A stretch of 23,860 nt of DNA, from IMG/VR virus record IMGVR_UViG_3300042564_003265, one strand, 5' to 3'. The position numbers and the translations under genes are program-made. This document shows, piece after piece, positions 6,891 to 23,489 of this stretch. Source of the stretch: a virus (lineage: Duplodnaviria; Heunggongvirae; Uroviricota; Caudoviricetes). Position 1 is the first letter of the stretch, and every line of letters starts with the position of its first letter. The notes below the pieces were generated by a model. The model was not told the DNA's origin. It worked only from the letters and a program-made list of their open reading frames with translations, and made no database searches.

Positions 6891-6891
6891 A

Positions 6892-9732: not shown

Positions 9733-9755
9733 AAAAATAAAGTTTAAAAAATTAG

Positions 9756-10502: not shown

Positions 10503-10527
10503 ATTTTTAAATTGTTTTTTAATTGTT

Positions 10528-11685: not shown

Positions 11686-11725
11686 TCGAATAAATCTTTA
11701 ATATATAAATAGTGGGACACCAAAT

Positions 11726-12369: not shown

Positions 12370-12395
12370 ATGATATAAATATTATTCCCATTAAA

Positions 12396-12424
12396 TAAAA
12401 AATCCCACCGTATGGTGGGATTTT
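12396..12424 (-). terminator. Intrinsic terminator
   Basis: AAAATCCCACC-gtat-GGTGGGATTTT. Confidence 0.8.
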
Positions 12425-12427
12425 GTT

Positions 12428-13375
12428 TTATCCAAGATAGTTCTGATAATAGTCCAACAAGACCTTATCTCTAATCTTATTTTTCTTATGGATAGTCTCG
12501 TCTCTCATAAAACAGTCGAAGCCATATAATACTTTGGCAATCACGATTCGTGCGTTACTAAACCCGGTTGCTTTCCAATTAATACCGTATTCACTATAAA
12601 CGGCACTGAACACGTAATCAACACCGTCTCTATGGGTTCTATCGTTCACCGTGGTAATGGTATCCACATAGTTCTCAATCAAGGTCTTAATCTTCTTGTT
12701 ATTGGTACCGTACTTCTTGGAGATTAATAGAAGTGCTGTCAATACATTCCCACTATACTTCTTACCCATTCTATCCAAGTTGAATCCATCAACGTATTTT
12801 AATTCGGACCAGAAGAAGTCCAATAAGATGTTGAAGTTCTTTCTTACATTCTTTCCTCCAAGGTATAAACCGTCATCGTTATGAGCATATTGTGCTGCGT
12901 TCTTGACTGCGGTAATAAACTTACCCGTTTTAACCACGGTGCTAACGGCATTATAACCTCTCTCACGTAAAAGTCCTGTGGACTTATCATTGGAGGTTTC
13001 AACTGATTGTTGACTATCAATTGAATCATATAATTTGTAGGTATAATCAGCGGAGTCCACCTCATATACTTTCACATCCAACGGAACGTTGGGAGTTAAT
13101 TCAGGTTTAACTGACCAACACTCACAACGTGTGTTTCCATTAAGACGGAAGTATTCCCCTTTCTTATAAGGACCAAACGCTTTGGTTGTGTACCCAACAG
13201 CAACCTCCAAGTGTGTTGGAAGAGCTTCTTCTGATAATAATCCCACAATACGAGGAATACGTACCTCCACCTCTCGGTTTCTATTATAAGGAGGAAGTTT
13301 CATAAACCAAGAAGGTGACTTTGATACTCGATACGATTTCTTTGTAGTGAAATCTAACTTTTTAGATTTTTCCAT
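12428..13375 (-). CDS. ParB/DGQHR-like N-terminal domain protein
   Basis: PYNRNRE...YFRLNGNTR resembles ParB-superfamily motifs; start MEKSK at 13375 follows the upstream stop directly. Confidence 0.55.
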   Translation of the reverse strand: MEKSKKLDFTTKKSYRVSKSPSWFMKLPPYNRNREVEVRIPRIVGLLSEEALPTHLEVAVGYTTKAFGPYKKGEYFRLNGNTRCECWSVKPELTPNVPLDVKVYEVDSADYTYKLYDSIDSQQSVETSNDKSTGLLRERGYNAVSTVVKTGKFITAVKNAAQYAHNDDGLYLGGKNVRKNFNILLDFFWSELKYVDGFNLDRMGKKYSGNVLTALLLISKKYGTNNKKIKTLIENYVDTITTVNDRTHRDGVDYVFSAVYSEYGINWKATGFSNARIVIAKVLYGFDCFMRDETIHKKNKIRDKVLLDYYQNYLG

Positions 13376-13376
13376 T

Positions 13377-13955
13377 TTAGTTTTTGTTTTTAAAAGTTTT
13401 GATAAAAGATAATAGATGTGTATAGGAAGTTCCCTTAAGAACATTTTGTTTCTTGAATAACCAATCGATATCCACCGAATCAATGGATGTACGTTTTCCA
13501 ACATAGGTATTATAGGAGTTTACCTCTTTGGAATTATTCATACCCGTAAGGGTAATCTTGGGATTGTCTGTAACGACTTTCTTTGGAACACAATAGAAGG
13601 ATGGTTTGAATTTACCATTAACAAAACATAGAATAAAATAATCTAAGTCCTGCCAATCACGGATGTTGGTAATGGAATACTTGTCCTTTTGGTTGAGGTA
13701 TGAAATCTTAACCTCGAAGAACTTCTTGTAGTGAATGTGTAAATCACCTCTGTTTAATTTCATTGAAACACTCTTGAGATAGTGTCCCACGTCTTGTTGT
13801 ATCTTACCGGGAAATACCGCTCCGTATTTACTCGGTGTACATACATTGTAGATTTTGAGAATGAAGTCCGACATCTTTAATTGATAGTCTGTCTCGGTAA
13901 TAATGTTACGTTTCTCCTGTTTCTTTTTAACCTCCTTTAGTAAGTCTTTATTCAT
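13377..13955 (-). CDS. Putative PD-(D/E)xK restriction-endonuclease-like protein
   Basis: RGDLHIHYKKFFEVKIS (D...ExK) and DLDYFILCFV. Confidence 0.5.
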   Translation of the reverse strand: MNKDLLKEVKKKQEKRNIITETDYQLKMSDFILKIYNVCTPSKYGAVFPGKIQQDVGHYLKSVSMKLNRGDLHIHYKKFFEVKISYLNQKDKYSITNIRDWQDLDYFILCFVNGKFKPSFYCVPKKVVTDNPKITLTGMNNSKEVNSYNTYVGKRTSIDSVDIDWLFKKQNVLKGTSYTHLLSFIKTFKNKN

Positions 13956-13974
13956 TGTGTTGGATTTAGTAGAA

Positions 13975-14005
13975 CAAAATTAGGAATAATTCTGAATATT
14001 CCAAA
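13975..14005 (-). promoter_or_regulatory. Bacteroidota sigma-A type promoter
   Basis: Minus strand TTTG-N19-TAATTTTG, a consensus match. Confidence 0.7.
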
Positions 14006-14023
14006 AAAATTCTAAAAAATATT

Positions 14024-14362
14024 TTATTTCCACAAAACTTGAATCAGGAGTATACACAACCCGAGAAGGAGACATATGACGGTTTTGAGATTAATGGGTT
14101 CACCGAAGATGAAATAACTCATAAACGCAAATACAATAATACCTATGGAGAAACCGATTAATCTACTCGGCCATATCTGTCCCCCGAAATACATAACAAA
14201 GTATTCCACGGACTTAATGAATAGATAGGATATAGGGATTGCAGATGACAACATTATAATTGGATACTTCTCAAACCAATGATATTTGACATTTCCCTGT
14301 AGTTGAAGAAAGGTGAGGATTTGGGCCACTAACCCATATAACATTCCGAGTAATAGATTCAT
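14024..14362 (-). CDS. Small 4-TM membrane protein (DMT/SMR-like)
   Basis: 112 aa from MNLLLG; four hydrophobic helices; W..RLIGF..G..VF pattern. Confidence 0.7.
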   Translation of the reverse strand: MNLLLGMLYGLVAQILTFLQLQGNVKYHWFEKYPIIMLSSAIPISYLFIKSVEYFVMYFGGQIWPSRLIGFSIGIIVFAFMSYFIFGEPINLKTVICLLLGLCILLIQVLWK

Positions 14363-14367
14363 TCTTA

Positions 14368-14399
14368 AAAATATACACATAATAGTCGGATTTTTCAAA
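14368..14399 (-). promoter_or_regulatory. Bacteroidota sigma-A type promoter
   Basis: Minus strand TTTG-N20-TATATTTT. Confidence 0.6.
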
Positions 14400-14510
14400 A
14401 AATTCTGGAAAATTTTTAAATCACTTTTAGGGGTCATTCCCCTTTTTTAGATTTTTTTCCGGAAAAATTTCAGTTACGGCATTGTCCCCCCTATTCAGAC
14501 ACCCTAAATA

Positions 14511-14575
14511 CCCTTATATAAGGGGGGATACGGGAGGGGGGAGGGGGTACCTACGGGGTAGGTAGGGGTATAGGG
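14511..14575 (+). other. G-tract cluster (putative G-quadruplex) with palindromes
   Basis: Seven runs of 3-6 G in 14522-14575; perfect palindrome CCCTTATATAAGGG (14511-14524); TACCTAC-ggg-GTAGGTA (14548-14564). Confidence 0.7.
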
Positions 14576-14588
14576 ACCGGTAGACATT
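14576..14588 (-). repeat. 13-bp box, single copy (unit 0)
   Basis: ACCGGTAGACATT, reverse complement of the box consensus AATGTYYWMCRGY. Confidence 0.7.
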
Positions 14589-14662
14589 CGGTTGAGGATT
14601 TTGTCCACGGGGGTCAGTCCTTATTTAGACTGAAAATAAATTAAAAAATAATTGGTCAATCG

Positions 14663-14694
14663 TTTGGTATTCTCATATAACCTTAATACATTTA
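14663..14694 (+). promoter_or_regulatory. Cassette promoter
   Basis: TTTG-N20-TACATTTA. Confidence 0.75.
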
Positions 14695-14724
14695 CATATC
14701 GTTTCACACTAACCACTAAACGTT

Positions 14725-15087
14725 ATGAACAAAACACACATCTTCTTACTCCGTACAAGTGTTGGAATCACTATCGACTTTGAAGTGAACACCAAAGGTC
14801 AATTCGACCACATCAGTTTTTCCACCGAAAACGAGTTCTTAATGGAGGACGAAGAGTTTGATGATTGGGGTCAAGAAGTAAGAGAGGAGTATGAATCCCT
14901 TTTGAAGTACTTGGTAAGAGAAGGGGTAATCAAAGTCGAATTAGACTTGGAACACGAGGGAATGAAAATGGTTACTATCGGGACTATCGAAGTTCTCAAA
15001 TCGGGTTACATTGTCGAATATGAATATCTCGAAGGAGGGACTTGGTTTAAGGACAAGTCGGTACACGAACACCGACTACCTTACTAA
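14725..15087 (+). CDS. Acidic hypothetical protein (0 Ala)
   Basis: 120-aa ORF between promoter and terminator. Confidence 0.85.
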   Translation: MNKTHIFLLRTSVGITIDFEVNTKGQFDHISFSTENEFLMEDEEFDDWGQEVREEYESLLKYLVREGVIKVELDLEHEGMKMVTIGTIEVLKSGYIVEYEYLEGGTWFKDKSVHEHRLPY

Positions 15088-15093
15088 CGAAAG

Positions 15094-15120
15094 GAGGAAC
15101 GGAAGTTCCTCTTTTTTTTT
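15094..15120 (+). terminator. Intrinsic terminator
   Basis: GAGGAAC-GGAA-GTTCCTC plus U9. Confidence 0.85.
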
Positions 15121-15163
15121 ATTTGTTTATATCAAAAAAAATGTTGTCGTCAGGACTGACAAA

Positions 15164-15214
15164 GATGTTCACCGGTTATTTGGTCGGTGGAAGTCATTTA
15201 ACCGGTGGACATTT
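15164..15214. repeat. Inverted box pair
   Basis: GATGTTCACCGGTTA (15164-15178) and AACCGGTGGACATTT (15200-15214). Confidence 0.8.
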
Positions 15215-15273
15215 TCGTGGGACGAATCCGAAAAAAATGTGGATAACTATGTGGAAAAGTTTTGACCAAATTA

Positions 15274-15305
15274 TTAGGATATATGGATTATATTATTTTA
15301 CTTTG
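15274..15305 (+). promoter_or_regulatory. Cassette promoter with no gene of its own
   Basis: TTAG-N20-TTACTTTG. Confidence 0.65.
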
Positions 15306-15379
15306 TATTGTTGTTGAGGGGGTAAGGAAATAAGGTTAAAAAAAATTAACATTTCTTAACAAAACTTTAACACCAAATA

Positions 15380-15411
15380 TTAGGTTATATCAGTTATATT
15401 GACTTATTTTG
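15380..15411 (+). promoter_or_regulatory. Cassette promoter
   Basis: TTAG-N20-TTATTTTG. Confidence 0.7.
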
Positions 15412-15444
15412 TTTCATCGTTTAACACTTAAATAAATAAACACT

Positions 15445-16053
15445 ATGTCTAATCAAGTAAAAAACATCGTATCAGTACCTAACAATGAGTGGGTATCAGT
15501 AGTAGGAGAAGTATTATCAGTAGTTAATAACCCTACATTCAGTTCCTTTGTATCAAAGGTAAAAGTGAAAATGAATCAGTACCTTGATTATTGGGTAATC
15601 AATGAAGAGGGTAAGAAGAAAAAGAATCCAAACCCTACAAGGAATCCTTACTACGATGAGGGTATTATCAACCACTCTCGTAAAGTTCAAATTAACACAG
15701 GTTTTGACTATGTTAAGAGTGTTAATAGAAGATTGGAAAATGAGGGTAAGGAGAGTGATTTTGAAGGACAAGATAATTGGTTTGAGGTTATCAGTAAGGG
15801 TTTGGTAACCGACAAGAGTACAAGAACAAAATTGTACTTCCGTTATCAGTACCTTAACACAAGTACACAAGACCAAGAGTTCTTGTTTCAAGGTAACCAA
15901 ATTGAAAAGAACTTATTTGAAAGTTTTATGAGTGAGAGTACAAAGTATGAGAATCAAGGGTTGGACAATCCACTACAATTCCAAGTGTGTGATTTGAACA
16001 ATATCTTAAAGATAACAATAGGTGGAACAACCTATGAGAGAGAGTTAGTATAG
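15445..16053 (+). CDS. Phage hypothetical protein (0 Ala in 202 aa)
   Basis: ORF track; KMN...NPYY...DY pattern shared with the 23490 gene. Confidence 0.85.
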   Translation: MSNQVKNIVSVPNNEWVSVVGEVLSVVNNPTFSSFVSKVKVKMNQYLDYWVINEEGKKKKNPNPTRNPYYDEGIINHSRKVQINTGFDYVKSVNRRLENEGKESDFEGQDNWFEVISKGLVTDKSTRTKLYFRYQYLNTSTQDQEFLFQGNQIEKNLFESFMSESTKYENQGLDNPLQFQVCDLNNILKITIGGTTYERELV

Positions 16054-16074
16054 TGTGAATAGTTTAACAACTGA

Positions 16075-16105
16075 AAGGGGTGTAGAAATACACTCCTTTT
16101 TTTTT
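16075..16105 (+). terminator. Intrinsic terminator
   Basis: AAGGGGTGTA-GAAA-TACACTCCTT plus U-tract. Confidence 0.85.
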
Positions 16106-16142
16106 GTCTTACGGAACAACGAGTCGGAGGAAGACGGGTCGG

Positions 16143-16193
16143 AAATGTCTTACAGCTTTCGGGGGTTGTCTTACGAATAACCGGTGGACATTT
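16143..16193. repeat. Inverted box pair
   Basis: AAATGTCTTACAGCTTT (16143-16159) and AACCGGTGGACATTT (16179-16193). Confidence 0.85.
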
Positions 16194-16269
16194 CTCACAA
16201 GGTTGTTTTCACCAAATTTTTTCCACTTTTTATTTGTTAAAAAAATAATTTAAACTTTAACATATTTTT

Positions 16270-16301
16270 TTTGGTGGTTTGGTATAATGGTATTACTTTT
16301 A
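16270..16301 (+). promoter_or_regulatory. Cassette promoter
   Basis: TTTG-N20-TACTTTTA. Confidence 0.75.
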
Positions 16302-16326
16302 CACTCTAATCAAATAACATACTACA

Positions 16327-16599
16327 ATGAACAAGATGACCGAAGAATTAGTAACCAAAGTAATCAAAGGTATTATCGTAGACCGAACTACTCAATTAAT
16401 TGAGGATATGTCGAATCAAGATTTTATCGAACAAGTAATGGACAAACTCCAAGAAGAAGAGTTTGAGTTGGACTTTGACAACGAAGAAGTCCAAGAAGAA
16501 ATTACTGACCTTGTTGGTAAACAAGTCCTACCCTTACTCCTTAAAGTAATGGAATGGGGTATCGGTAAAGAACTACCAAAGGTACCGACCTTAAATTAA
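16327..16599 (+). CDS. Acidic hypothetical protein (0 Ala)
   Basis: 90-aa ORF. Confidence 0.8.
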   Translation: MNKMTEELVTKVIKGIIVDRTTQLIEDMSNQDFIEQVMDKLQEEEFELDFDNEEVQEEITDLVGKQVLPLLLKVMEWGIGKELPKVPTLN

Positions 16600-16616
16600 A
16601 AGTTCCCCCACTTTTA

Positions 16617-16646
16617 GTCCCACAAGAAATTGTGGGATTTTTTTTT
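16617..16646 (+). terminator. Intrinsic terminator
   Basis: GTCCCACAA-GAAA-TTGTGGGAT plus U-tract. Confidence 0.85.
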
Positions 16647-16684
16647 GGTTGTGTCAAAAAATGTTGGTGGAACCGTGATGGGAA

Positions 16685-16732
16685 GATGTCTAACAGCTTC
16701 CATATTTGTCTTACAGATAACCGGTGGACATT
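16685..16732. repeat. Inverted box pair
   Basis: GATGTCTAACAGCTT (16685-16699) and AACCGGTGGACATT (16719-16732). Confidence 0.85.
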
Positions 16733-16770
16733 CCTTGTTGATGAACTGTGGAAAAGTTTTTACCAAAATA

Positions 16771-16802
16771 ATAGGATATATGGATTATATTGTTTTACTT
16801 TG
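16771..16802 (+). promoter_or_regulatory. Cassette promoter
   Basis: ATAG-N20-TTACTTTG. Confidence 0.7.
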
Positions 16803-16822
16803 TATCGTTAAACATTAATACT

Positions 16823-17116
16823 ATGACAAAAGAATTTATCCAAGAACAATTACAATACAATCCAAAGTGGATTGAGAGAGGTTTGGTTGTGTTATACAAT
16901 AGACAAACCCAAGATGAGAAAGAGAACGTAATGACCAAGTACGAGAACGGAATTGGTTTTAACGGAAGTGATGTACGTTATCTAACCTATTGTTCCAAGT
17001 GGGTTATGAGTGGTAAGAGTTTGAGTGGTGTTCACTTACAAAAGTGTGGTAAGATGTTGAAGAAGTATTGGAAACAAATCAAAGAGGAAATCGAACTGAA
17101 AAGTAGGAGAGGGTAA
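16823..17116 (+). CDS. Conserved-looking phage protein (QT.DEK...T...NGIGF; 0 Ala)
   Basis: 97 aa from ATG 16823; the track start at 16790 lies inside the promoter. Confidence 0.85.
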   Translation: MTKEFIQEQLQYNPKWIERGLVVLYNRQTQDEKENVMTKYENGIGFNGSDVRYLTYCSKWVMSGKSLSGVHLQKCGKMLKKYWKQIKEEIELKSRRG

Positions 17117-17120
17117 GGAG

Positions 17121-17178
17121 AATGTCCACCGGTTAAATGGTGGATATATCTCTATGTCCAAATCGCCGTTACACATTT
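17121..17178. repeat. Inverted box pair
   Basis: AATGTCCACCGGTT (17121-17134) and GCCGTTACACATTT (17165-17178). Confidence 0.8.
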
Positions 17179-17254
17179 CTCACGGACGAAGGTTCACCAA
17201 ATTTTTTCCACTTTTTATTTGTTAAAAAAATAATTTAAAATTTAACACGAAATA

Positions 17255-17286
17255 ATAGGAATTATCATTTATATTGTTTTACTTTG
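17255..17286 (+). promoter_or_regulatory. Cassette promoter
   Basis: ATAG-N20-TTACTTTG. Confidence 0.7.
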
Positions 17287-17309
17287 TCTTAACTTTAAAC
17301 TATAACACA

Positions 17310-17516
17310 ATGGATAATCAAGAAAACAAACTACGAGTAAAATTGAGTACGTTCAAATCCGACTTATCATTCAACGAGTGGGTTGAAAAATATAATGTCG
17401 GTCGATACTACAACGAACCTACAAAGTATTTTCAAGGTAACCCCACGAGTGGTATTGAACCTCTAAAACTCCAAAGGGTTGGTAACTCGTTTCTCAATCT
17501 CTTTTTCAAGTCCTAA
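17310..17516 (+). CDS. Small hypothetical protein (0 Ala)
   Basis: 68 aa from ATG 17310. Confidence 0.75.
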   Translation: MDNQENKLRVKLSTFKSDLSFNEWVEKYNVGRYYNEPTKYFQGNPTSGIEPLKLQRVGNSFLNLFFKS

Positions 17517-17521
17517 TAACA

Positions 17522-17546
17522 AACCCTACTTCGGTAGGGTTTTTTT
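17522..17546 (+). terminator. Intrinsic terminator
   Basis: AACCCTAC-TTCG-GTAGGGTT plus U-tract (cUUCGg loop). Confidence 0.9.
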
Positions 17547-17578
17547 ATGTCCTCATTGTAATCTAATTACAATCAACG

Positions 17579-17615
17579 AAATGTCCAACAGCTTTCAAAT
17601 AACCGGTGTACATTT
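17579..17615. repeat. Inverted box pair
   Basis: AAATGTCCAACAGCTTT (17579-17595) and AACCGGTGTACATTT (17601-17615). Confidence 0.85.
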
Positions 17616-17664
17616 CCACGGGTGAAGTATCCCATAAACTTTAACATTTCTTAACAAAGATAAA

Positions 17665-17696
17665 TTTGGTGGTCTCATATCATTATATTAATTTTA
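17665..17696 (+). promoter_or_regulatory. Cassette promoter
   Basis: TTTG-N20-TAATTTTA. Confidence 0.75.
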
Positions 17697-17718
17697 TACT
17701 ATTAAACAAACACACACT

Positions 17719-17964
17719 ATGAAAAAGTTTCAAGAAAAAATTCAGAAAATCGGAGTAGTCTTAATGTTGGTATTCCCAATTTGTTTAGTCCTTACTCTTT
17801 TGTGTTCGGACTATCGAGGTGAGACTGAATACAATCAGTACGTTGTCATCAGTAAGTTCCTCGTGAATTGGTACACATTTACTACCACGTTAATCGGTAT
17901 GTTACTTTACACACTCGGTTGGGTTAAAGTTCCACAAAAAAGAAAGAGACCACAAACTTTCTAA
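17719..17964 (+). CDS. 2-TM membrane protein (0 Ala)
   Basis: 81 aa with two hydrophobic segments. Confidence 0.75.
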   Translation: MKKFQEKIQKIGVVLMLVFPICLVLTLLCSDYRGETEYNQYVVISKFLVNWYTFTTTLIGMLLYTLGWVKVPQKRKRPQTF

Positions 17965-17982
17965 AATAATAATGGTGGGAGG

Positions 17983-18033
17983 AAGTCTAACAGCTTCCTT
18001 TCCTCATATACACAAAATAACCGGTGAACATTT
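17983..18033. repeat. Inverted box pair
   Basis: AAGTCTAACAGCTT (17983-17996) and AACCGGTGAACATTT (18019-18033). Confidence 0.8.
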
Positions 18034-18106
18034 CCGACACGTCTTCACCTTCGGGTTCTGAGTTAAAAAAATTTAACACTCTTTAACATTTTTTTAACGT
18101 GTAGAA

Positions 18107-18138
18107 TTTGGTATAATGAAATATCCATTATATATTTG
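18107..18138 (+). promoter_or_regulatory. Cassette promoter
   Basis: TTTG-N20-TATATTTG, a consensus match. Confidence 0.8.
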
Positions 18139-18173
18139 TATTGTTATTTAATCACACACTAATAATCAAACAA

Positions 18174-18374
18174 ATGAAAAATCTATTTGAAGTAATGTTC
18201 GGTCAAAATTTTGAGTATGTCGTGAACCTCGTAAGTCGTATGGACACGATTGAAAAATGTCTATTCCTTTTTTGGAGTATCTGTGTAGTATTGTTTTATT
18301 CTACAATCCTATACACTATCTACCTCGTAGGTAAAAGTCTTGTAAGTAAATTATTCACTACTAAAACTATATAA
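18174..18374 (+). CDS. Single-TM small protein (0 Ala)
   Basis: 66 aa from ATG 18174. Confidence 0.65.
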   Translation: MKNLFEVMFGQNFEYVVNLVSRMDTIEKCLFLFWSICVVLFYSTILYTIYLVGKSLVSKLFTTKTI

Positions 18375-18375
18375 G

Positions 18376-18708
18376 ATGTCAAATCACATTTCAACAAAAT
18401 CAAAGTATGTTCGTATCGATGGTTGGAGAGGTTACTCTGAACCGATAAATGCGATTGGTGGTTGTAACCACACGGGTGGTTGGGAAGATAGTCCTTGTCC
18501 AACTTCAGTAGTAAAATCTGAATTAGATGGTTTTAAGAAAATCCTAAAACAAAATAAAATCAGATTCAAACAATTAGTAACTCAAAGTTCTAATGTCTTT
18601 TGTCAACACGTTTACGTTTTAGTACACCCTATTGATAGGGAACGTGGATTGGAATTGAGTGAAGACTATTCTAAACGTGAAGGTATTAGATTGTTCTACT
18701 CGGTATAA
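18376..18708 (+). CDS. Phage hypothetical protein (1 Ala)
   Basis: 110 aa; DGWRGY..P, SSNVFC motifs. Confidence 0.85.
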   Translation: MSNHISTKSKYVRIDGWRGYSEPINAIGGCNHTGGWEDSPCPTSVVKSELDGFKKILKQNKIRFKQLVTQSSNVFCQHVYVLVHPIDRERGLELSEDYSKREGIRLFYSV

Positions 18709-18727
18709 CATTCATCTAATGAAACTG

Positions 18728-18760
18728 AAACCCTCGGACTTAAATGTTCGGGGGTTTTTT
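18728..18760 (+). terminator. Intrinsic terminator
   Basis: AAACCCTCGGAC-ttaaat-GTTCGGGGGTTT plus U-tract. Confidence 0.75.
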
Positions 18761-18792
18761 ATTTGTCCTACACCCAACACCATCTTGAGTCA

Positions 18793-18863
18793 GGACCTGG
18801 AGAAATGTCTTACAGCTTTCGGTAGTTGTCTTACAAATAACCGGTGAACATTTTTCCAGGTCC
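18793..18863. repeat. Inverted box pair with extended complementary flanks
   Basis: GGACCTGGAGAAATGT (18793-18808) is the 15/16 reverse complement of ACATTTTTCCAGGTCC (18848-18863); boxes at 18803-18819 and 18839-18853. Confidence 0.85.
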
Positions 18864-18919
18864 CTGTGGTACTACGTCATTCGCGTTAAAAAAATTTTAA
18901 CACTTTTTAACAAAATAAA

Positions 18920-18951
18920 TTTGGTGGTCTCATATCAATATATTACTTTTA
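18920..18951 (+). promoter_or_regulatory. Cassette promoter
   Basis: TTTG-N20-TACTTTTA. Confidence 0.75.
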
Positions 18952-18955
18952 CATT

Positions 18956-19033
18956 ATGAAAAACACATACATAAAGTGGTCAATTATTTTCTTATTATTA
19001 ACAATTAAAATTTTATTACAAAATGGTAATTAA
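18956..19033 (+). CDS. Possible 25-aa hydrophobic peptide
   Basis: MKNTYIKWSIIFLLLTIKILLQNGN; first ATG after the promoter; overlaps the next start. Confidence 0.35.
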   Translation: MKNTYIKWSIIFLLLTIKILLQNGN

Positions 19034-19355
19034 ACTAACACTCCTAAACGGAAACTCGTTTTTGGTAAACGTAAACCAAGTACAAACTATTTTCCCTAAA
19101 TTTTACAAAGGGAATTACATCACTCGTATTCAATTAGGTCAAGAACAAATGATTCAAGTTCAAGAGTCGATTGAAGAAATCTACAATCAGATTTGGAACG
19201 AAGAAAAAATCGAGACACCATTCACTTTGGTAACTCGTGATGATGATGATTCTGATTTTAGACCAAGACCTCAATATCAGAAACCACGTTACGAAAACCA
19301 ACGTGAATATCTACCTCGTTATGAAAGAAACTATAACAATCAAAACCATTACTAA
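19023..19355 (+). CDS. FlbD-like domain protein with polar C-tail (0 Ala)
   Basis: MVIKLTLLNGNSFLVN...IQVQESIEEI resembles the FlbD family pattern IKLTxLNG..F.LN...V.ES.EEV. Confidence 0.6.
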   Translation: MVIKLTLLNGNSFLVNVNQVQTIFPKFYKGNYITRIQLGQEQMIQVQESIEEIYNQIWNEEKIETPFTLVTRDDDDSDFRPRPQYQKPRYENQREYLPRYERNYNNQNHY

Positions 19356-19356
19356 A

Positions 19357-19500
19357 ATGAAAGAGATGATTCAGTTATTCAAAGAAGTCTATCAAGAAGA
19401 TAGAAAAGAATTTTGGGAAGGTATTTTGGGTGGAGTATTAATAGTAAGTGTATCCATATTCTTGTTTTGGTTCGCGGGTACATTTTGTTACGATATGTGA
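19357..19500 (+). CDS. 47-aa single-TM protein (1 Ala)
   Basis: ATG 19357 follows the upstream stop directly. Confidence 0.7.
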   Translation: MKEMIQLFKEVYQEDRKEFWEGILGGVLIVSVSIFLFWFAGTFCYDM

Positions 19501-19534
19501 TTAGTAGTAGTAGTGTGTTTAACGATGAGAAATT

Positions 19535-19564
19535 CCCTCGACGAAAGTCGGGGGTTTTCTTTTT
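19535..19564 (+). terminator. Intrinsic terminator
   Basis: CCCTCGAC-GAAA-GTCGGGGG plus U-rich tail. Confidence 0.8.
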
Positions 19565-19597
19565 ATGTCCAACACCATCTCATCAGGGACGCTGTGG

Positions 19598-19630
19598 AAA
19601 TGTCTTACTGCTTTTAACCGGTAAACATTT
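19598..19630. repeat. Inverted box pair
   Basis: AAATGTCTTACTGCTTT (19598-19614) and AACCGGTAAACATTT (19616-19630). Confidence 0.85.
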
Positions 19631-19681
19631 TTCAGGGACGGAACCTTCAGACAAAATTTAACACTTTTTAACAAAAATAAA

Positions 19682-19713
19682 TTTGGTAGTTTAAAATAAA
19701 GGTATTACCTTTA
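19682..19713 (+). promoter_or_regulatory. Cassette promoter
   Basis: TTTG-N20-TACCTTTA. Confidence 0.75.
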
Positions 19714-19733
19714 TATCATTAAACAAAGACATT

Positions 19734-19949
19734 ATGAAAGTAATCAATTCAAGAATCACTGAACAACCAAAATCGTTGTTCGACCCTTTACCACAAGTGT
19801 TCGTAACATTGGAGAATGGAGTTGAAGAATTTTTATTCGACTACTATCCCGATGAAATCAGTTTCACTCCGAATGAATTTATCGGATTGACTACGGATGA
19901 ATGTAGAACCTTGAAGTTCAAAAAAGATAAACATTTTCTAACCTCTTAA
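19734..19949 (+). CDS. Small phage protein (YYPDEISF motif; 0 Ala)
   Basis: 71-aa ORF. Confidence 0.85.
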   Translation: MKVINSRITEQPKSLFDPLPQVFVTLENGVEEFLFDYYPDEISFTPNEFIGLTTDECRTLKFKKDKHFLTS

Positions 19950-19958
19950 TTTACTACA

Positions 19959-20150
19959 ATGACACAAAGAGAAAAAATTAAATCAATCGTACTATTAATC
20001 TTACTATTAGTTGGTGGATTGTACATCTTGGGTTTCGGTATCTACACCATTTCAATTACACACTTGTTCATTAGTGGACTTGTACTAATCAGTTATGGTT
20101 TGGTACTCTCGTTCTTTTCATCCTATCTTTTGATTGACATCAGAAAATAA
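19959..20150 (+). CDS. 2-TM membrane protein (0 Ala)
   Basis: 63 aa, hydrophobic. Confidence 0.7.
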   Translation: MTQREKIKSIVLLILLLVGGLYILGFGIYTISITHLFISGLVLISYGLVLSFFSSYLLIDIRK

Positions 20151-20160
20151 TGATGGTGGG

Positions 20161-20211
20161 AAGTCTAACAGCTTCCCATTCTCATACACATCAAATAACC
20201 GGTAGACATTT
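20161..20211. repeat. Inverted box pair
   Basis: AAGTCTAACAGCTT (20161-20174) and AACCGGTAGACATTT (20197-20211). Confidence 0.8.
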
Positions 20212-20287
20212 TCAAAAGATGAAGGAAATCCAAATTTTTTCTACTTTTTATTTGTTAAAAAAATAATTTAAAATTTAACACAAAATA

Positions 20288-20319
20288 ATAGGATATATGG
20301 ATTATATTGTTTTATTTTG
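20288..20319 (+). promoter_or_regulatory. Cassette promoter
   Basis: ATAG-N20-TTATTTTG. Confidence 0.7.
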
Positions 20320-20323
20320 TGTT

Positions 20324-20878
20324 ATGAAAAAATTACTACTACTATTATTATTATTATCTGTTTCAATAATATCTTGTGAGAAAGATGAAATCTTACCACA
20401 AAACCAACTTGAAAAATCACAAAAAGATTTGATAGTAACATATTGTGAGGCGAATTTACCAGGGTATAGTATTGACCAACAAACGGGAATTTATTATCGA
20501 GTTACAAAAAAAGGTGATTTAACAAAAAACATTAATAGTCCGTTTGGGATTGGTATAAAATATATTGGTAAGTACATCTATTGGAAAGACAATCATATTG
20601 ATGGAGTGAAAGGTACTATATTTGACGCTCTACCCCAACCTTATGAGAATCAATTATTTTATATTAGAAGTCCTTTCGAGAACATTTTTATGTCTTTATA
20701 TAAAACGGGTGGTAATGGTTTCCCAACCGCTCAACAATTTGTGTTGAGAACAATCGGTGTGGGTGGTGAAATGGATGTTGTCGTTCCGTGTTATATGGAT
20801 GGTAATAATTGTGAAATTAGTAGATTGAATCTTCCCACAATAAAAGAATCACCATTACATTATTATGTTAGGTTTTAA
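20324..20878 (+). CDS. Bacteroidota-type lipoprotein with FKBP-like fold (3 Ala)
   Basis: MKKLLLLLLLLSVSIISC lipobox followed by EKDE; TGIYYRVTKKG, IKYIG...GTIFD, IGVGGEMDVVVP resemble FKBP PPIase elements. Confidence 0.65.
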   Translation: MKKLLLLLLLLSVSIISCEKDEILPQNQLEKSQKDLIVTYCEANLPGYSIDQQTGIYYRVTKKGDLTKNINSPFGIGIKYIGKYIYWKDNHIDGVKGTIFDALPQPYENQLFYIRSPFENIFMSLYKTGGNGFPTAQQFVLRTIGVGGEMDVVVPCYMDGNNCEISRLNLPTIKESPLHYYVRF

Positions 20879-20900
20879 CACAAATAGTATTACACAAAGG

Positions 20901-20927
20901 AATCCTACTTCGGTAGGATTTTTTTTT
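20901..20927 (+). terminator. Intrinsic terminator
   Basis: AATCCTAC-TTCG-GTAGGATT plus U-tract. Confidence 0.9.
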
Positions 20928-20966
20928 GTCCACAACTCATCTTGACCAAGCATCTGTAACCCGGAG

Positions 20967-20998
20967 AAATGTCTTACAGCTTTTCGCCGTTACACATT
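20967..20998. repeat. Inverted box pair (tight spacing)
   Basis: AAATGTCTTACAGC-ttttc-GCCGTTACACATT. Confidence 0.85.
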
Positions 20999-21059
20999 CT
21001 ACGACCTTCGCGCTGAGGAGTTCATCATAAAAAACTTTAACACTTTTTAACAAATTAAA

Positions 21060-21091
21060 TTTGGTATTCTCATATAAAGGATATACTTTTA
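21060..21091 (+). promoter_or_regulatory. Cassette promoter
   Basis: TTTG-N20-TACTTTTA. Confidence 0.75.
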
Positions 21092-21116
21092 CATCATAAT
21101 CAAAAACACAAATACT

Positions 21117-21482
21117 ATGACTAAAGGAATTTTTATTGACGTTGAAAATCGTAAGATTGAAGAAGTATTGTTAGACACCTCTAATGAACCACAATACCAA
21201 GTTATCCAAAGATTGGTTGGTGGTTTAATGGAATACCTACCAATACAAATCAAAGGTAATGACTTAATCATAAATGAAGAAGGTCGTTATATGTTTGAAA
21301 AAGGTTTTAGAATTAAAGGGTGGAATGACAAATTGTACGGAAGTGGTTTGTTGTTGGGATTCGATGACACTACGGGTGATAACATTGATACCACTCTATC
21401 GGTTGATGAAGTAACCGAGTTGGTTGAGTTCACTGATGTTAAAATTGGGGAAGGGGACTTTGTTCAAGTGTTTAGTTTTTAG
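21117..21482 (+). CDS. DUF3846-like phage protein (0 Ala)
   Basis: IQRLVGGLME, LIINEEG, LYGSGLLLG resemble DUF3846. Confidence 0.7.
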   Translation: MTKGIFIDVENRKIEEVLLDTSNEPQYQVIQRLVGGLMEYLPIQIKGNDLIINEEGRYMFEKGFRIKGWNDKLYGSGLLLGFDDTTGDNIDTTLSVDEVTELVEFTDVKIGEGDFVQVFSF

Positions 21483-21502
21483 TGTGGGTTAGTAAGTCAA
21501 AG

Positions 21503-21530
21503 ACCACTCCGAAAGGGGTGGTTTTTTTTT
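21503..21530 (+). terminator. Intrinsic terminator
   Basis: ACCACTCC-GAAA-GGGGTGGT plus U-tract. Confidence 0.85.
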
Positions 21531-21566
21531 GTCGAGAAGAAGATGTTGGTGAAGAAGACGGGGTGG

Positions 21567-21582
21567 AATGTCTAACAGCTTT
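21567..21582 (+). repeat. 13-bp box, single copy
   Basis: AATGTCTAACAGCTTT with no inverted partner. Confidence 0.75.
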
Positions 21583-21616
21583 CACTTAAAACTTTAACAC
21601 TTTTTAACAAAATAAA

Positions 21617-21648
21617 TTTGGTGGTTTAAAATAATAGTATTACCTTTA
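21617..21648 (+). promoter_or_regulatory. Cassette promoter
   Basis: TTTG-N20-TACCTTTA. Confidence 0.75.
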
Positions 21649-21671
21649 TAGTGTTAAAAAAATATACTACT

Positions 21672-21962
21672 ATGTCAAACTCAATTTCAAACGGATTCAA
21701 AGAACTCCGTAAACTCGGTTACTTTTGTAGACAAAACTATTGGTGTTGTCAAACTTGTGGGTGGAGTGATATCCCCGAAGACAAGTCGGAGAAAGTTGTG
21801 TTCTTCCACAATCAAGACAACGATGACAAAAAGAGGGGTAATCCTTTCTACCTCTGTTGGAGTGGTGACGGAAACTTAATCTGTGAAGTTCTCAAAAAAC
21901 ACGGAGTCGAAACGGATTGGAACGGAAATGACTCAACTCGAATACGAGTGGTCAGTTGGTAA
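21672..21962 (+). CDS. Small Cys-containing phage protein (NYWCCQTCG; 0 Ala)
   Basis: 96 aa from ATG 21672. Confidence 0.85.
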   Translation: MSNSISNGFKELRKLGYFCRQNYWCCQTCGWSDIPEDKSEKVVFFHNQDNDDKKRGNPFYLCWSGDGNLICEVLKKHGVETDWNGNDSTRIRVVSW

Positions 21963-21976
21963 ATGAAACTGAAAAG

Positions 21977-22002
21977 ACCTCAACGAAAGTTGGGGTTTTT
22001 TT
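21977..22002 (+). terminator. Intrinsic terminator
   Basis: ACCTCAAC-GAAA-GTTGGGGT plus U-tract. Confidence 0.85.
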
Positions 22003-22044
22003 ATTTCCACCAAGAAGAATCTGTTGACAACAGCGCACTGGTGG

Positions 22045-22075
22045 GATGTTCAACGGCGTTTAACCGGTAGACATT
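22045..22075. repeat. Inverted box pair
   Basis: GATGTTCAACGGCGTT (22045-22060) and AACCGGTAGACATT (22062-22075). Confidence 0.85.
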
Positions 22076-22138
22076 CGTCTGGTTCGGAGCTGGTCGTTCT
22101 GTTGGTCAAAAAATAATTTAAAAATAGTTGGTCAAAAA

Positions 22139-22170
22139 TTTGGTTATATCATTTATATTGTTTTACTTTG
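22139..22170 (+). promoter_or_regulatory. Cassette promoter
   Basis: TTTG-N20-TTACTTTG. Confidence 0.75.
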
Positions 22171-22191
22171 TGGTGTAATAAAATATATGGT

Positions 22192-22695
22192 ATGACAAAC
22201 ATTGATAAATTTATTGAACAACAACGAGAATTTGTACTACGAGTGTTTAAAGGTGAAGGTGAACTACAACCTATCTTATGTTTCCTAACTGAAAAGGAAG
22301 GTAAGTTGGGTACGAGTTTTTGTCCAATACCTACTGAACTTATGAATGATGAAGGTAAGGATATTATTAGGTACCAATTAATTGAACAAGTTAAAAGTGT
22401 AATTAAAGGTCAAGGTCACAAACTACTATGTGTGAATTGGAATAGTGAGGGGTGGATGTACCAAAGTTCAAAAGAACAATTAGAAGAAGTGAATGGTCAC
22501 TACCGAAAGTTACCAAGAACGGAAGTGTTGTTAATGTCCTTTGATACTGAAAGTGGTAGTCAAGTTATTACCTACGAAATTAAAAGAAATCTATCGGTCG
22601 GTGAAGACGGACTGAATGAAGAAGTTGAAGTAGAACTTATGGAGTTGTCCAAGAATGTGACAAGTAAAGGTAGGTTTACTAAAATGTTTGATTAG
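22192..22695 (+). CDS. Phage hypothetical protein (SEGW motif; 0 Ala)
   Basis: 167 aa from ATG 22192. Confidence 0.85.
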   Translation: MTNIDKFIEQQREFVLRVFKGEGELQPILCFLTEKEGKLGTSFCPIPTELMNDEGKDIIRYQLIEQVKSVIKGQGHKLLCVNWNSEGWMYQSSKEQLEEVNGHYRKLPRTEVLLMSFDTESGSQVITYEIKRNLSVGEDGLNEEVEVELMELSKNVTSKGRFTKMFD

Positions 22696-22721
22696 TGTTT
22701 TTTGTTTACTCATTAGTTTAG

Positions 22722-22755
22722 AAAGGGGTAGGAATTTTTCCTACTCTTTTTTTTT
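22722..22755 (+). terminator. Intrinsic terminator
   Basis: AAAGGGGTAGGAA-ttt-TTCCTACTCTTT plus U-tract. Confidence 0.85.
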
Positions 22756-22788
22756 GTCCAAGAACCTGATTCTGTCCCGTCCTGGTGG

Positions 22789-22819
22789 AATGTTCAACAG
22801 CTTTCGCCGTTACACATTT
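22789..22819. repeat. Inverted box pair (tight spacing)
   Basis: AATGTTCAACAGC-tttc-GCCGTTACACATTT. Confidence 0.85.
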
Positions 22820-22888
22820 GTCCCACTCTTCCGGGGAATTCACCTTCAAAAAATTTAACACTCTTTAACATTTTTTTAACTACAATTA

Positions 22889-22920
22889 TTTGGATATATC
22901 AATTATATTGTTTTACTTTA
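22889..22920 (+). promoter_or_regulatory. Cassette promoter
   Basis: TTTG-N20-TTACTTTA. Confidence 0.75.
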
Positions 22921-22953
22921 CACTATTAAATCACACACATAAAACACAAAAAA

Positions 22954-23238
22954 ATGGAAAGTAGAATTGTAGTAACACCACGAGGTGACTTCGGTCACGA
23001 TTGGAACTTGATTGTCGAAACAAACGACGGAGTAAAGAACTTTTATTTAGGTCAAGACGTAAAGTTTTGTAGTCGAGTATTAGGACTTACACCACGAGAA
23101 ATTGTCCACGAAATTGGAACGGGTGACTTCCGTAATGAAGAAAACTTAAAACTATTAGGTAACTTCATTAGTGAACAATTAGGTTTAGTCGAGGAATCGG
23201 TAAACGAATTGGAATCTTGGGAATTGTGTTGTCAGTAG
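22954..23238 (+). CDS. Phage hypothetical protein (0 Ala)
   Basis: 94-aa ORF; FYLGQDVKFCSRVLG. Confidence 0.85.
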   Translation: MESRIVVTPRGDFGHDWNLIVETNDGVKNFYLGQDVKFCSRVLGLTPREIVHEIGTGDFRNEENLKLLGNFISEQLGLVEESVNELESWELCCQ

Positions 23239-23257
23239 TAATTACTGAACTGAAAAG

Positions 23258-23283
23258 ACCTCAACGAAAGTTGGGGTTTTTTT
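23258..23283 (+). terminator. Intrinsic terminator, identical to 21977
   Basis: ACCTCAAC-GAAA-GTTGGGGT plus U-tract. Confidence 0.85.
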
Positions 23284-23318
23284 ATGTCAAGAACAACCTG
23301 AAGAAAATCCTGAGGGAG

Positions 23319-23362
23319 AAATGTTCAACAGCTTTCACACAACAAAAAAACCGGTAGACATT
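23319..23362. repeat. Inverted box pair
   Basis: AAATGTTCAACAGCTTT (23319-23335) and AACCGGTAGACATT (23349-23362). Confidence 0.85.
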
Positions 23363-23422
23363 GTTCTCCGAAGGTATCCCAAAAAATTTTAACACTTCTT
23401 AACATTTTTTTAACTACAAAAA

Positions 23423-23454
23423 TTTGGTGGTCTCATATCAATATATTACTTTTG
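23423..23454 (+). promoter_or_regulatory. Cassette promoter
   Basis: TTTG-N20-TACTTTTG, a consensus match. Confidence 0.8.
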
Positions 23455-23489
23455 TATTGTTAAATTATTAAACACTAAAAGTTACTACT

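What the first reader, a model, noticed from the sequence alone, without database searches (positions are those of the whole stretch)
16143..23362. Surviving GpCs sit almost only in terminator-to-promoter spacers, mostly inside the conserved box
Seen: about 23 non-coding GpC in the array all lie between a gene end or terminator and the next -33 box. Fifteen are the GC of the box (ACAGCT, ACTGCT, ACGGCG, GCCGTT); 8 are elsewhere in spacers (18883, 19591, 20950, 21010, 21012, 22033, 22035, 22089). The ten G+C-rich terminator stems and all 5' UTRs contain none. Inference: two testable models. In the RNA model a GC-specific ribonuclease destroys host mRNA or is a host defence, so transcripts are GC-free and untranscribed DNA is exempt. 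In the DNA model the box GC is a protected, protein-bound or decoy site. Three spacers lack an obvious terminator (17117-17254, 17965-18106, 20151-20287) and may be transcribed, which weakens the RNA model.
Basis: partly seen in the sequence, partly recalled or inferred. Interest (0 to 1): 0.75.

Follow-up and report, generated by a model that had tools for sequence, protein, structure and literature searches.

The report
GpC purge stops at transcript ends
In the early genes of an uncultured lake phage, the two-letter step G-then-C has been removed from everything that is transcribed (so the proteins lack alanine) but survives in the short gaps between genes, which suggests that some unidentified factor reads GC on transcripts or during transcription rather than simply cutting the DNA.

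Summary
The counts are exact. There are 23 non-coding GpC in 16143-23362: 15 in the box and 8 elsewhere in spacers. Terminators and 5' UTRs have none.

The four "box types" are one 12-nt motif, ATGTnnnACrGC, in both orientations.

Corrected for composition:
- Transcribed DNA: 5 GC against 193 expected, all of them alanine codons.
- Non-box spacer: 8 against 46.
- Boxes: 15 against 14.
- Rest of the window: 217 against 408.

So spacers are about 7-fold less purged than transcripts but are not exempt. The six proximal spacers have no non-box GC.

The window's own contig and five distant relatives give 66 terminators in all. GC observed/expected jumps from 0.0-0.2 to 0.4-1.45 within about 40 nt after the terminator T-run, while CG stays flat.

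Between close strains, substitutions that make or break GC are 2/333 in transcripts and 6/102 in spacers.

GATC, CATG and CTAG are absent everywhere in this phage, spacers included. That is ordinary DNA-level site avoidance and serves as an internal contrast.

A plain GC-cutting DNA nuclease is therefore unlikely. A transcript-level or transcription-level reader is favoured, but no agent was identified. Palindromes such as GATC behave the same way in some relatives, which is unexplained.

This scan has noted GpC-free early genes before on related phage DNA. I found no paper describing it.

The parts
14665..23860 (+). Early-gene cassette array of about 18 small genes, each with a Bacteroidota-type promoter and most with a terminator. 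It continues to about window-equivalent 33.2 kb on the same contig (L004).
   Evidence: L004 is the same contig (99.99% identity, offset 12953). Transcribed DNA has 5 GC against 193 expected.
14438..14724 (.). Divergent non-coding zone at the head of the array, with C-runs, a long G-tract and one GC-less box-2 copy. It holds only one GC (14479).
16145..16156 (+). Box motif ATGTnnnACrGC, plus orientation, GC at 16155. The other plus-strand copies are at 16686-16697, 17581-17592, 17983-17994, 18805-18816, 19600-19611, 20161-20172, 20969-20980, 21568-21579, 22046-22057, 22790-22801 and 23321-23332.
   Evidence: G and C are invariant in all 15 copies, while three upstream positions vary.
17165..17176 (-). 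The other copies are at 20986-20997 and 22806-22817.
16180..16192 (+). Box 2, ACCGGTrGACATT: a diverged, GC-less inverted partner of the box motif. The other copies are at 15201-15213, 16720-16732, 17602-17614, 18020-18032, 18840-18852, 19617-19629, 20198-20210, 22063-22075 and 23350-23362.
   Evidence: CCGG occurs 17 times against 3 expected in spacers.
18883..22090 (.). Span holding the eight non-box spacer GC: 18883, 19591, 20950, 21010, 21012, 22033, 22035, 22089. All lie in the distal half of the window.
   Evidence: Distal spacers have 8 against 25.6 expected; proximal spacers 0 against 21.
18451..20730 (+). Span holding the five coding GC: 18451, 19474, 20450, 20627, 20729. All are alanine codons. 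Three sit in the lipoprotein gene 20297-20878, a cassette that strain L005 lacks.
16616..16646 (+). Intrinsic terminator: a G+C-rich stem with no GC, followed by a T-run. The others are at 15089-15120, 16073-16105, 17521-17546, 18727-18760, 19535-19564, 20901-20927 and 21499-21530, and their T-runs end at 22002, 22755 and 23283.
   Evidence: 3'UTR plus terminators have 0 GC against 15 expected.
17117..17160 (+). Strong hairpin directly after the stop codon in a spacer that has no T-run terminator. Similar hairpins are at 17972-18007 and 20150-20185. In those two the box GC is paired inside a 10-bp stem.
   Evidence: -30, -17.8 and -18.7 kcal/mol, with z-scores -4.8, -2.9 and -2.9.

Best explanation
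The GpC purge follows transcription units, not the DNA as such. Everything from about the transcription start to the end of the terminator is kept GC-free by ongoing selection. The stretch between a terminator and the next promoter lies outside that constraint, so it can hold GC. I think the most likely agent is a factor that recognises GC in RNA, either a nuclease or an RNA modifier. It could be a host defence or a phage host-shutoff weapon. It would be active while the first genes are expressed, so early messages must carry no target. The 15 box GC belong to one 12-nt motif present in both orientations. This is most simply a binding site on the DNA for a dimeric protein. It keeps its GC because the site needs it and because it lies outside the mature transcript. 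Shown here: the counts, the boundaries, the ongoing selection, and the contrast with GATC/CATG/CTAG. Inferred: that the target is RNA, what the agent is, and what the box does.
For: 1. In the window, transcribed DNA has 5 GC against 193 expected. All five are alanine codons. Non-box spacer has 8 against 46 and boxes 15 against 14 (spacer against transcribed p=0.001).
2. In 4303 array codons of the same contig, codon-junction G|C is 0 against 94.5 expected, and NGC codons number 2 against 398 NGT. The target is therefore the dinucleotide, not alanine.
3. In a meta-profile aligned on the terminator T-run end, GC O/E is 0.00-0.06 (own contig) and 0.04-0.21 (relatives) in the 100 nt upstream and 0.4-1.45 beyond +20 nt downstream. 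This holds in the own contig (17 terminators, p=5e-7) and in five relatives with 53-59% protein identity (49 terminators, p=8e-13). In the relatives the rise is already visible in the first 40 nt, before the box (p=6e-6). CG stays flat. On the 5' side the GC-free zone starts about 20 nt before the ATG in relatives.
4. Just beyond the window end, spacers carry 9-15 GC beside genes whose only GC are alanine codons.
5. Between strains that are 97% identical, substitutions that make or break GC are 2/333 in transcribed units and 6/102 in spacers (p=0.003). For CG they are 59/333 and 10/102.
6. As an internal control, GATC (0/74), CATG (0/74) and CTAG (1/74) are absent from the whole window, spacers included, and different relatives avoid different palindromes. 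That is what DNA-level restriction avoidance looks like, and GC does not behave like that.
7. 110 of 120 homologues of the 202-aa array protein contain no alanine, so the purge is clade-wide.
8. Enzymes that read two or three RNA letters are known: CmdT reads GA in ssRNA (bioRxiv 10.1101/2024.02.24.581662) and MqsR reads GCU (PMC4905990).
Against: 1. Non-box spacers in this window are still depleted: O/E 0.17, and 0 against 21 expected in the six proximal spacers.
2. Terminator stems, which are paired RNA, are as GC-free as coding RNA. An ssRNA-only RNase such as MqsR would not require this.
3. In relatives, GATC (L007, L009) and TCGA (L008) are purged from transcribed units but kept in spacers. 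An unbiased scan finds almost only palindromes among the purged 4-mers. Palindromes suggest a reader of double-stranded DNA.
4. Non-array genes deplete GC in the order RGCY > RGCR/YGCY > YGCR, with no clear strand asymmetry.
5. Contigs from one RNA-seq library span four spacers: 17038-17190, 18628-18912, 19517-19757 and 22666-22917. DNA carry-over in that library cannot be excluded.
6. No RNase or RNA modifier was found among the array proteins.
Confidence: 0.42

Rival explanations
1. A DNA-template-level block. A factor reads GC (preferring RGCY) and other short palindromes on double-stranded DNA and harms only transcription through the site. It could act as a roadblock, as an Alc-like terminator of elongating polymerase, or by nicking the template strand. 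Early genes are transcribed from the incoming DNA, so they must lack the sites. Spacers are not transcribed, so sites there do no harm.
For: The same boundary evidence applies. In addition, the purged words are palindromes (GC, and GATC and TCGA in relatives). Context depletion is symmetric, RGCY > YGCR. Paired terminator stems are purged as well. The T4 Alc protein, which stops transcription on cytosine-containing DNA, is a precedent from my own knowledge and was not checked here.
Against: No such factor is known for a 2-bp word. Late genes keep GC at O/E about 0.5, so a time limit or a change of template must also be assumed. A nickase with 2-bp specificity would cut both strands at every palindromic site.
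Confidence: 0.25
2. DNA cleavage model. A GC-reading or RGCY-reading nuclease attacks the first-entering DNA. All DNA there is purged, and the remaining GC are shielded because a protein bound to the box and its neighbours covers the spacers.
For: In the proximal 3.7 kb the only GC are the five box GC, and non-box spacers have 0 against 21 expected. The depletion fades with distance from the array head on both sides. The RGCY hierarchy in other genes resembles the specificity of CviJI-type enzymes. Avoidance of motifs in the leading region is documented (PMC12455610).
Against: Spacers of the same contig and of all relatives carry many GC. These include AGCT and clusters such as the 15 GC at L004 14802-14918, directly beside genes with zero synonymous GC. 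The rise starts within 0-40 nt of the T-run, outside the box. GATC, CATG and CTAG show what true DNA-level avoidance looks like in this phage.
Confidence: 0.12
3. Mutational decay. GpC cytosines are methylated and deaminate preferentially in heavily transcribed, transiently single-stranded DNA, so GC erodes to GT and AC within transcription units without any selection against GC.
For: AC (O/E 1.38) and GT (1.19) are the most over-represented dinucleotides in transcribed array DNA.
Against: O/E of 0.00-0.03, together with loss of every alanine from proteins otherwise conserved across the clade (110/120 homologues), needs selection. The boundaries are sharp at terminators. Between strains CG changes freely while GC does not.
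Confidence: 0.05
4. A composition or chance artefact. Spacers simply have more G+C, and the box is repeated by duplication.
For: Box copies and parts of the spacers are repeats, so the 15 box GC are not 15 independent events.
Against: Expectations were computed per class from each class's own G and C content. CG is normal in coding, terminator and spacer DNA. Independent relatives with different box sequences show the same step.
Confidence: 0.02

Closest known systems
Restriction-motif avoidance confined to the first-injected (leading) region of phage genomes (Murciavirus, PMC12455610; T5 first-step-transfer DNA from my own knowledge)
   Same: A short word is purged from the early region only, while the rest of the genome keeps it.
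   Different: Here the word is two letters long and its removal costs the proteins their alanine. The purge stops at terminators and spares spacers in the same DNA. This phage's real DNA-level avoidance (GATC, CATG, CTAG) covers the spacers too.
CpG suppression in the immediate-early 1 transcript of human cytomegalovirus, which evades the RNA-binding protein ZAP (PMC7498042, title and abstract seen)
   Same: A dinucleotide is suppressed in the earliest transcription unit to escape a reader of RNA.
   Different: That is a eukaryotic virus, the dinucleotide is CpG, and suppression is partial.
MqsR, the GCU-specific and ribosome-independent mRNA interferase of E. coli (PMC4905990)
   Same: It is an RNA enzyme whose site contains GC, and a handful of E. 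coli mRNAs escape it by lacking the site.
   Different: All four GCN are purged here, as are paired terminator stems, whereas MqsR cuts only single-stranded GCU. No homologue was found or could be searched for in the unknown host.
[quoted passage not shown]
   Same: It is an anti-phage system that reads two letters of RNA.
   Different: The dinucleotide is different. Its authors judged escape by motif loss implausible, and the array here would be such an escape if the RNA model is right.
PeSL (promoter-early stem-loop) cassettes of T4-type phages (PMC2839356)
   Same: Small accessory genes are each framed by a strong promoter and a stem-loop terminator, and recombination between cassettes shuffles the genes. 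Strain indels and read joints at boxes and promoters are seen here.
   Different: The promoters are Bacteroidota-type. There is an extra inverted-repeat box between terminator and promoter. No dinucleotide purge is mentioned in the PeSL paper's abstract (only the outline was read).
Chlorella-virus enzymes with GC-centred short sites (CviJI RGCY, M.CviPI GpC; from my own knowledge)
   Same: Non-array genes deplete GC in the order RGCY > RGCR/YGCY > YGCR, the order I recall for relaxed CviJI cleavage.
   Different: No such gene was seen. The box itself is mostly AGCT, the best such site, so a cutting enzyme of this kind would hit every spacer.

Membership tests
DNA-level restriction-site avoidance | The word is depleted whether or not the DNA is transcribed, intergenic DNA included. 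| tested here: not met
   GC: transcribed O/E 0.03, boxes 1.06, spacers 0.17-0.54, with a step at terminators. GATC, CATG and CTAG do meet this feature.
DNA-level restriction-site avoidance | The word matches the site of a restriction system of the host. | not testable with these tools
   The host is unknown and no genome is held for this window.
Leading-region (first-injected DNA) avoidance | The purged region is the DNA that enters the cell first. | not testable with these tools
   Only a gradient away from the array head is seen. Genome ends and the mode of injection are unknown.
Evasion of an MqsR-type mRNA interferase | Avoidance is specific to GCU (and GCA). | tested here: not met
   Junction G|C is 0 against 94.5 expected across all contexts. 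Surviving alanine codons are GCG 18, GCT 10, GCA 4, GCC 2.
Evasion of an MqsR-type mRNA interferase | Only single-stranded sites matter, and paired sites are tolerated. | tested here: not met
   Terminator stems hold 0-1 GC against 15-23 expected. Two box GC do sit inside stems.
Evasion of an MqsR-type mRNA interferase | A toxin homologue is present in the host or the phage. | tested here: inconclusive
   Pfam and PHROG scans of array proteins gave no RNase family. The host and the rest of the phage could not be searched.
Dinucleotide suppression in earliest viral transcripts (ZAP-evasion type) | Suppression is confined to early transcription units and acts at synonymous sites. | tested here: met
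Dinucleotide suppression in earliest viral transcripts (ZAP-evasion type) | A host protein binds the dinucleotide in RNA. | not testable with these tools
   This needs biochemistry.
PeSL-type regulatory cassettes | Promoter plus stem-loop terminator units lie between small accessory genes, with recombination between units. | tested here: met
   L005 lacks the cassette at window 20211-20986. DNA-run joints fall at boxes and promoters.
PeSL-type regulatory cassettes | The promoters are sigma-70-type early promoters of T4-type coliphages. | tested here: not met
   The promoters here are of the TTTGG ... TAnnTTT(G/A) type, matching the Bacteroidota -33/-7 consensus (TAnnTTTG; papers listed).

The most novel reading that the evidence does not exclude
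Bacteroidota phages and their hosts fight over a factor that reads the bare dinucleotide GC on RNA or during transcription. A whole clade of giant lake phages escapes it, or stays immune to its own version of it, by writing every early message without GC and every early protein without alanine. GC is placed on purpose in the gaps just after terminators, where it marks read-through RNA or serves as a protein landing site.
Probability: 0.4. Interest if true: 0.9.

Novelty: new variant of a known kind. Interest (0 to 1): 0.74.

Why it matters
Motif avoidance in phages is normally read as escape from DNA restriction. Here the avoided word is only two letters long, removing it costs an amino acid, and the avoidance stops at transcript ends. 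GATC, CATG and CTAG in the same DNA show classical avoidance that ignores transcript ends.

That combination makes the question of what reads GC directly testable. Promoter and terminator positions are clear, and there are dozens of natural replicates. If the RNA reading holds, it would be the first phage counterpart of CpG suppression against ZAP. It would also contradict the view that phages cannot escape a two-letter RNA reader by losing the motif. Finally, it yields natural alanine-free versions of known domains, for example an RNA polymerase alpha-CTD-like protein.

Tried and rejected
- **Public phage and viral records.** Megablast of the window, and tblastn of the 202-aa protein, found nothing in phage records. 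The 358-aa protein found only distant cyanophage hits. Three scans of viral contigs (the box pattern and two proteins) found no relative.
- **Genome access.** No whole genome is held for the window, and the contigs behind my loci cannot be searched. I therefore could not look for a methyltransferase or RNase elsewhere in the phage or in a host.
- **The 202-aa conserved protein.** The AlphaFold model is confident (pLDDT 92). Foldseek found no PDB match. VIA-align gave only Z below 5, to small beta-barrels of the YaeO, WYL and Hfq type, and the PDB profile search gave nothing significant. No function is assigned.
- **RNA-seq evidence.** One metatranscriptome holds 8% of the words. Its contigs cover both genes and spacers, but the run also yields a 41-kb contig, and contigs cannot show RNA ends. 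It settles nothing about spacer transcription.
- **Alanine or tRNA-Ala as the target.** Rejected, because NGC codons, codon junctions and terminators are purged too.
- **The box pair as a strict hairpin.** Rejected. Spacing varies from 16 to 37 nt, and in L009 the arms vary independently, including C-A mismatches.
- **Literature.** Searches for GpC depletion or alanine-free phage genes found nothing relevant.

Full report
**What the window is**

The window is 34% G+C. GC is at 0.36 of expectation, while CG is normal. From 14.7 kb onward the + strand carries about 18 small genes. Each is preceded by an AT-rich element and a TTTGG/TAGG ... TAnnTTT(G/A) promoter of the Bacteroidota type (consensus in papers listed). 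Most are followed by a hairpin-plus-T-run terminator.

Notes from this scan describe the source as a large uncultured freshwater phage. Locus L004 is the same contig (99.99% identity, offset 12953) and extends the array to window-equivalent 33.2 kb. L005 and L006 are strains about 97-98% identical, with cassette gains and losses. L001, L002, L003, L007, L008 and L009 are distant relatives found through the conserved 202-aa array protein. 110 of 120 homologues of that protein contain no alanine.

**Checking the observation**

There are 23 non-coding GC in 16143-23362: 15 in boxes and 8 elsewhere in spacers. The ten terminators of that range and the 5' UTRs have none. The five coding GC are all alanine codons.

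The 'four kinds' of box GC are one 12-nt motif, ATGTnnnACrGC. Twelve copies lie on the + strand and three on the - strand, and G and C are invariant in all of them. The ACCGGTrGACATT 'box 2' is a diverged, GC-less inverted partner.

**Correction for composition**

| Class | GC observed | GC expected |
|---|---|---|
| CDS | 5 | 176 |
| 3'UTR plus terminators | 0 | 15 |
| 5'UTR | 0 | 2 |
| Promoter cores | 0 | 6 |
| Non-box spacer | 8 | 46 |
| Boxes | 15 | 14 |
| Rest of the window | 217 | 408 |

The 5'UTR figure is uninformative. CG is near expectation in every class except the CG-poor promoter cores and 5' UTRs.

Non-box spacer DNA is therefore about 7-fold less purged than transcribed DNA (p=0.001). 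It is not exempt, since it lies below the window's background of 0.53. All eight non-box GC and all five coding GC lie beyond 18.4 kb. In 14665-18373 the only GC are five box GC, and non-box spacer there has 0 against 21 expected. It is met in the proximal third of the array and not met in the rest.

**The target is the dinucleotide**

In 4303 array codons, codon-junction G|C is 0 against 94.5 expected, and NGC codons number 2 against 398 NGT. Alanine is 0.8% of residues, against 4.3% in the other genes of the window. The alanine codons that survive are shifted towards GCG (18/34 against 27/138, p=2e-4) and away from GCA. The target is the dinucleotide, not alanine or its tRNA.

**Where the purge ends**

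I aligned all predicted terminators on the end of the T-run.

- **Own contig (17 terminators).** GC O/E is 0.00-0.06 across the 100 nt upstream. Downstream it is 0.08, 0.43, 1.45, 0.34 and 0.73 in successive 20-nt bins.
- **Five distant relatives (49 terminators).** GC O/E is 0.04-0.21 upstream. Downstream it is 0.63, 0.40, 1.24, 0.97 and 0.77.
- **Control.** CG stays near 1 throughout.

Comparing +20..+119 with -60..-1 gives p=5e-7 for the own contig and p=8e-13 for the relatives. In the relatives the first 40 nt after the T-run, which precede the box, already differ from upstream (p=6e-6).

On the 5' side, GC disappears about 20 nt before the ATG in relatives. In the own contig it disappears from about -100, a zone that includes the AT-rich promoter module.

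Just beyond the window end, spacers carry 9, 15, 4 and 11 GC beside genes whose only GC are alanine codons. One of these spacers contains the run CTGCTGCAGCGCTGCGCTG.

**Is selection still acting?**

Between L004 and L006, 2 of 333 substitutions in transcribed units make or break a GC, against 6 of 102 in spacers (p=0.003). For CG the figures are 59/333 and 10/102.

**Internal control**

GATC (0 against 74 expected), CATG (0/74) and CTAG (1/74) are missing from the whole window, spacers and non-array genes alike. Relatives avoid other palindromes, for example ACGT in L001 and TCGA in L002 and L008. This is ordinary, host-specific avoidance of DNA restriction sites. GC behaves differently. Its purge is shared by the whole clade, graded along the array, and bounded by transcript ends.

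A nuclease that simply cuts DNA at GC or RGCY would also cut the AGCT of every box.

**The box**

In each relative the spacer carries an inverted repeat with a different sequence. Each one has GC at the inner ends of its arms:

- L007: ...TTGGCTC / GAGCCAA...
- L002: ...TTGGGC / GCCCAA...
- L009: ...GTGGCG / GCCAC...

A GTATTAC/GTATGAC-like heptamer often lies between the arms. In this window the corresponding heptamer is GTCTTAC, inside the box.

Arm spacing varies from 16 to 37 nt here. In L009 the arms vary independently, including combinations that would give C-A mismatches. A pair of protein half-sites therefore fits better than an obligatory hairpin.

The three spacers without a T-run each start with a strong hairpin. 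In two of them the box GC is paired inside a 10-bp stem.

**What does not fit a simple RNase model**

1. Paired terminator stems are as GC-free as coding RNA.
2. In L007 and L009 GATC, and in L008 TCGA, are purged from transcribed units but sit at or above expectation in spacers. An unbiased scan finds almost only palindromes among the strongly purged non-GC 4-mers.
3. In the non-array genes, GC is depleted in the order RGCY (0.33), then RGCR/YGCY, then YGCR (0.86). The RGCY-YGCR difference has p=3e-5, and there is no clear strand asymmetry.
4. The proximal spacers are purged.
5. Contigs from one RNA-seq library span four spacers, although DNA carry-over cannot be excluded.

That is my second-ranked model. 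No candidate enzyme was found, and the conserved 202-aa protein has no recognisable fold.

**Verdict**

The purge is tied to transcription units and is maintained by current selection. Plain DNA cleavage is unlikely. An RNA-level reader is the best single guess (about 0.4), a DNA-template-level block comes second (about 0.25), and the agent is unidentified.

This scan has reported GpC-free, alanine-free early genes on related DNA before. I found no paper that describes the phenomenon.

Noticed in passing
whole window 1-23860: GATC (0 against 74 expected), CATG (0/74) and CTAG (1/74) are absent from coding DNA and spacers alike. Relatives avoid other palindromes (ACGT in L001; GATC, CTAG and TCGA in L002; GATC and TCGA in L008). 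This is classical, lineage-specific avoidance of restriction sites.
   Followed up: yes
L007, L009 (GATC) and L008 (TCGA), array parts: In these relatives a palindromic 4-mer is purged from transcribed units but sits at or above expectation in spacers (for example L009 GATC 3/27 against 15/9), the same pattern as GC. This is unexplained.
   Followed up: partly
window 20211-20986 (lipoprotein gene 20297-20878): This cassette is missing in strain L005. It holds 3 of the 5 coding GC of the window, so it looks like a recent acquisition that is not yet fully purged.
   Followed up: partly
L005 2001-2294 and L006 1558-1851: Close strains carry an extra first cassette that encodes a 97-aa protein matching the RNA polymerase alpha C-terminal domain (Pfam E=2e-14). 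In L005 it has no alanine and no GC. The AT-rich element upstream of every array promoter could be its target or that of the host alpha-CTD.
   Followed up: partly
window 16108-23451 (joints in DNA run X1 and run X20): Metagenome contigs join distant cassettes at boxes, AT-rich elements and promoters (for example 16108>17580, 16193>21604, 18943>21084, 21085>23451). This indicates recombination between spacers and cassette shuffling in the population, as described for PeSLs.
   Followed up: partly
window 1-11700 (non-array genes): GC depletion depends on context: RGCY words 0.24-0.47, YGCR words 0.48-1.03 (TGCA 0.94). NGC codons are rare genome-wide (GGC 2 against GGT 132).
   Followed up: partly
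window 14520-14580: A G-tract of about 60 nt (runs of 4-7 G separated by 1-4 other bases, with no GC) follows C-runs at the head of the array. Depth in the DNA run is several-fold higher here, so the element seems to be shared by many phages in the sample.
   Followed up: no
spacers of the array (L004 1700-20285): CCGG is 5-fold enriched in spacers (17 against 3.1 expected, mostly in ACCGGT of box 2) and GCGC 2.6-fold. Both are rare in transcribed DNA. CTGG/CCAG is also purged from transcripts (1/25 and 5/21) but not from spacers (10/6).
   Followed up: no
window 11974-14437, minus strand: The genes that diverge leftward from the array head are also strongly GC-poor (junction G|C 2 against 23 expected, alanine 2.3%). 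The purge therefore spreads in both directions from the G-tract zone.
   Followed up: partly
window 15445-16053: This 202-aa protein is conserved in at least 160 environmental relatives and is almost always alanine-free. Its model is confident (pLDDT 92) but has no clear structural relative. It is the best-conserved gene of the array and a candidate for the key early function.
   Followed up: partly
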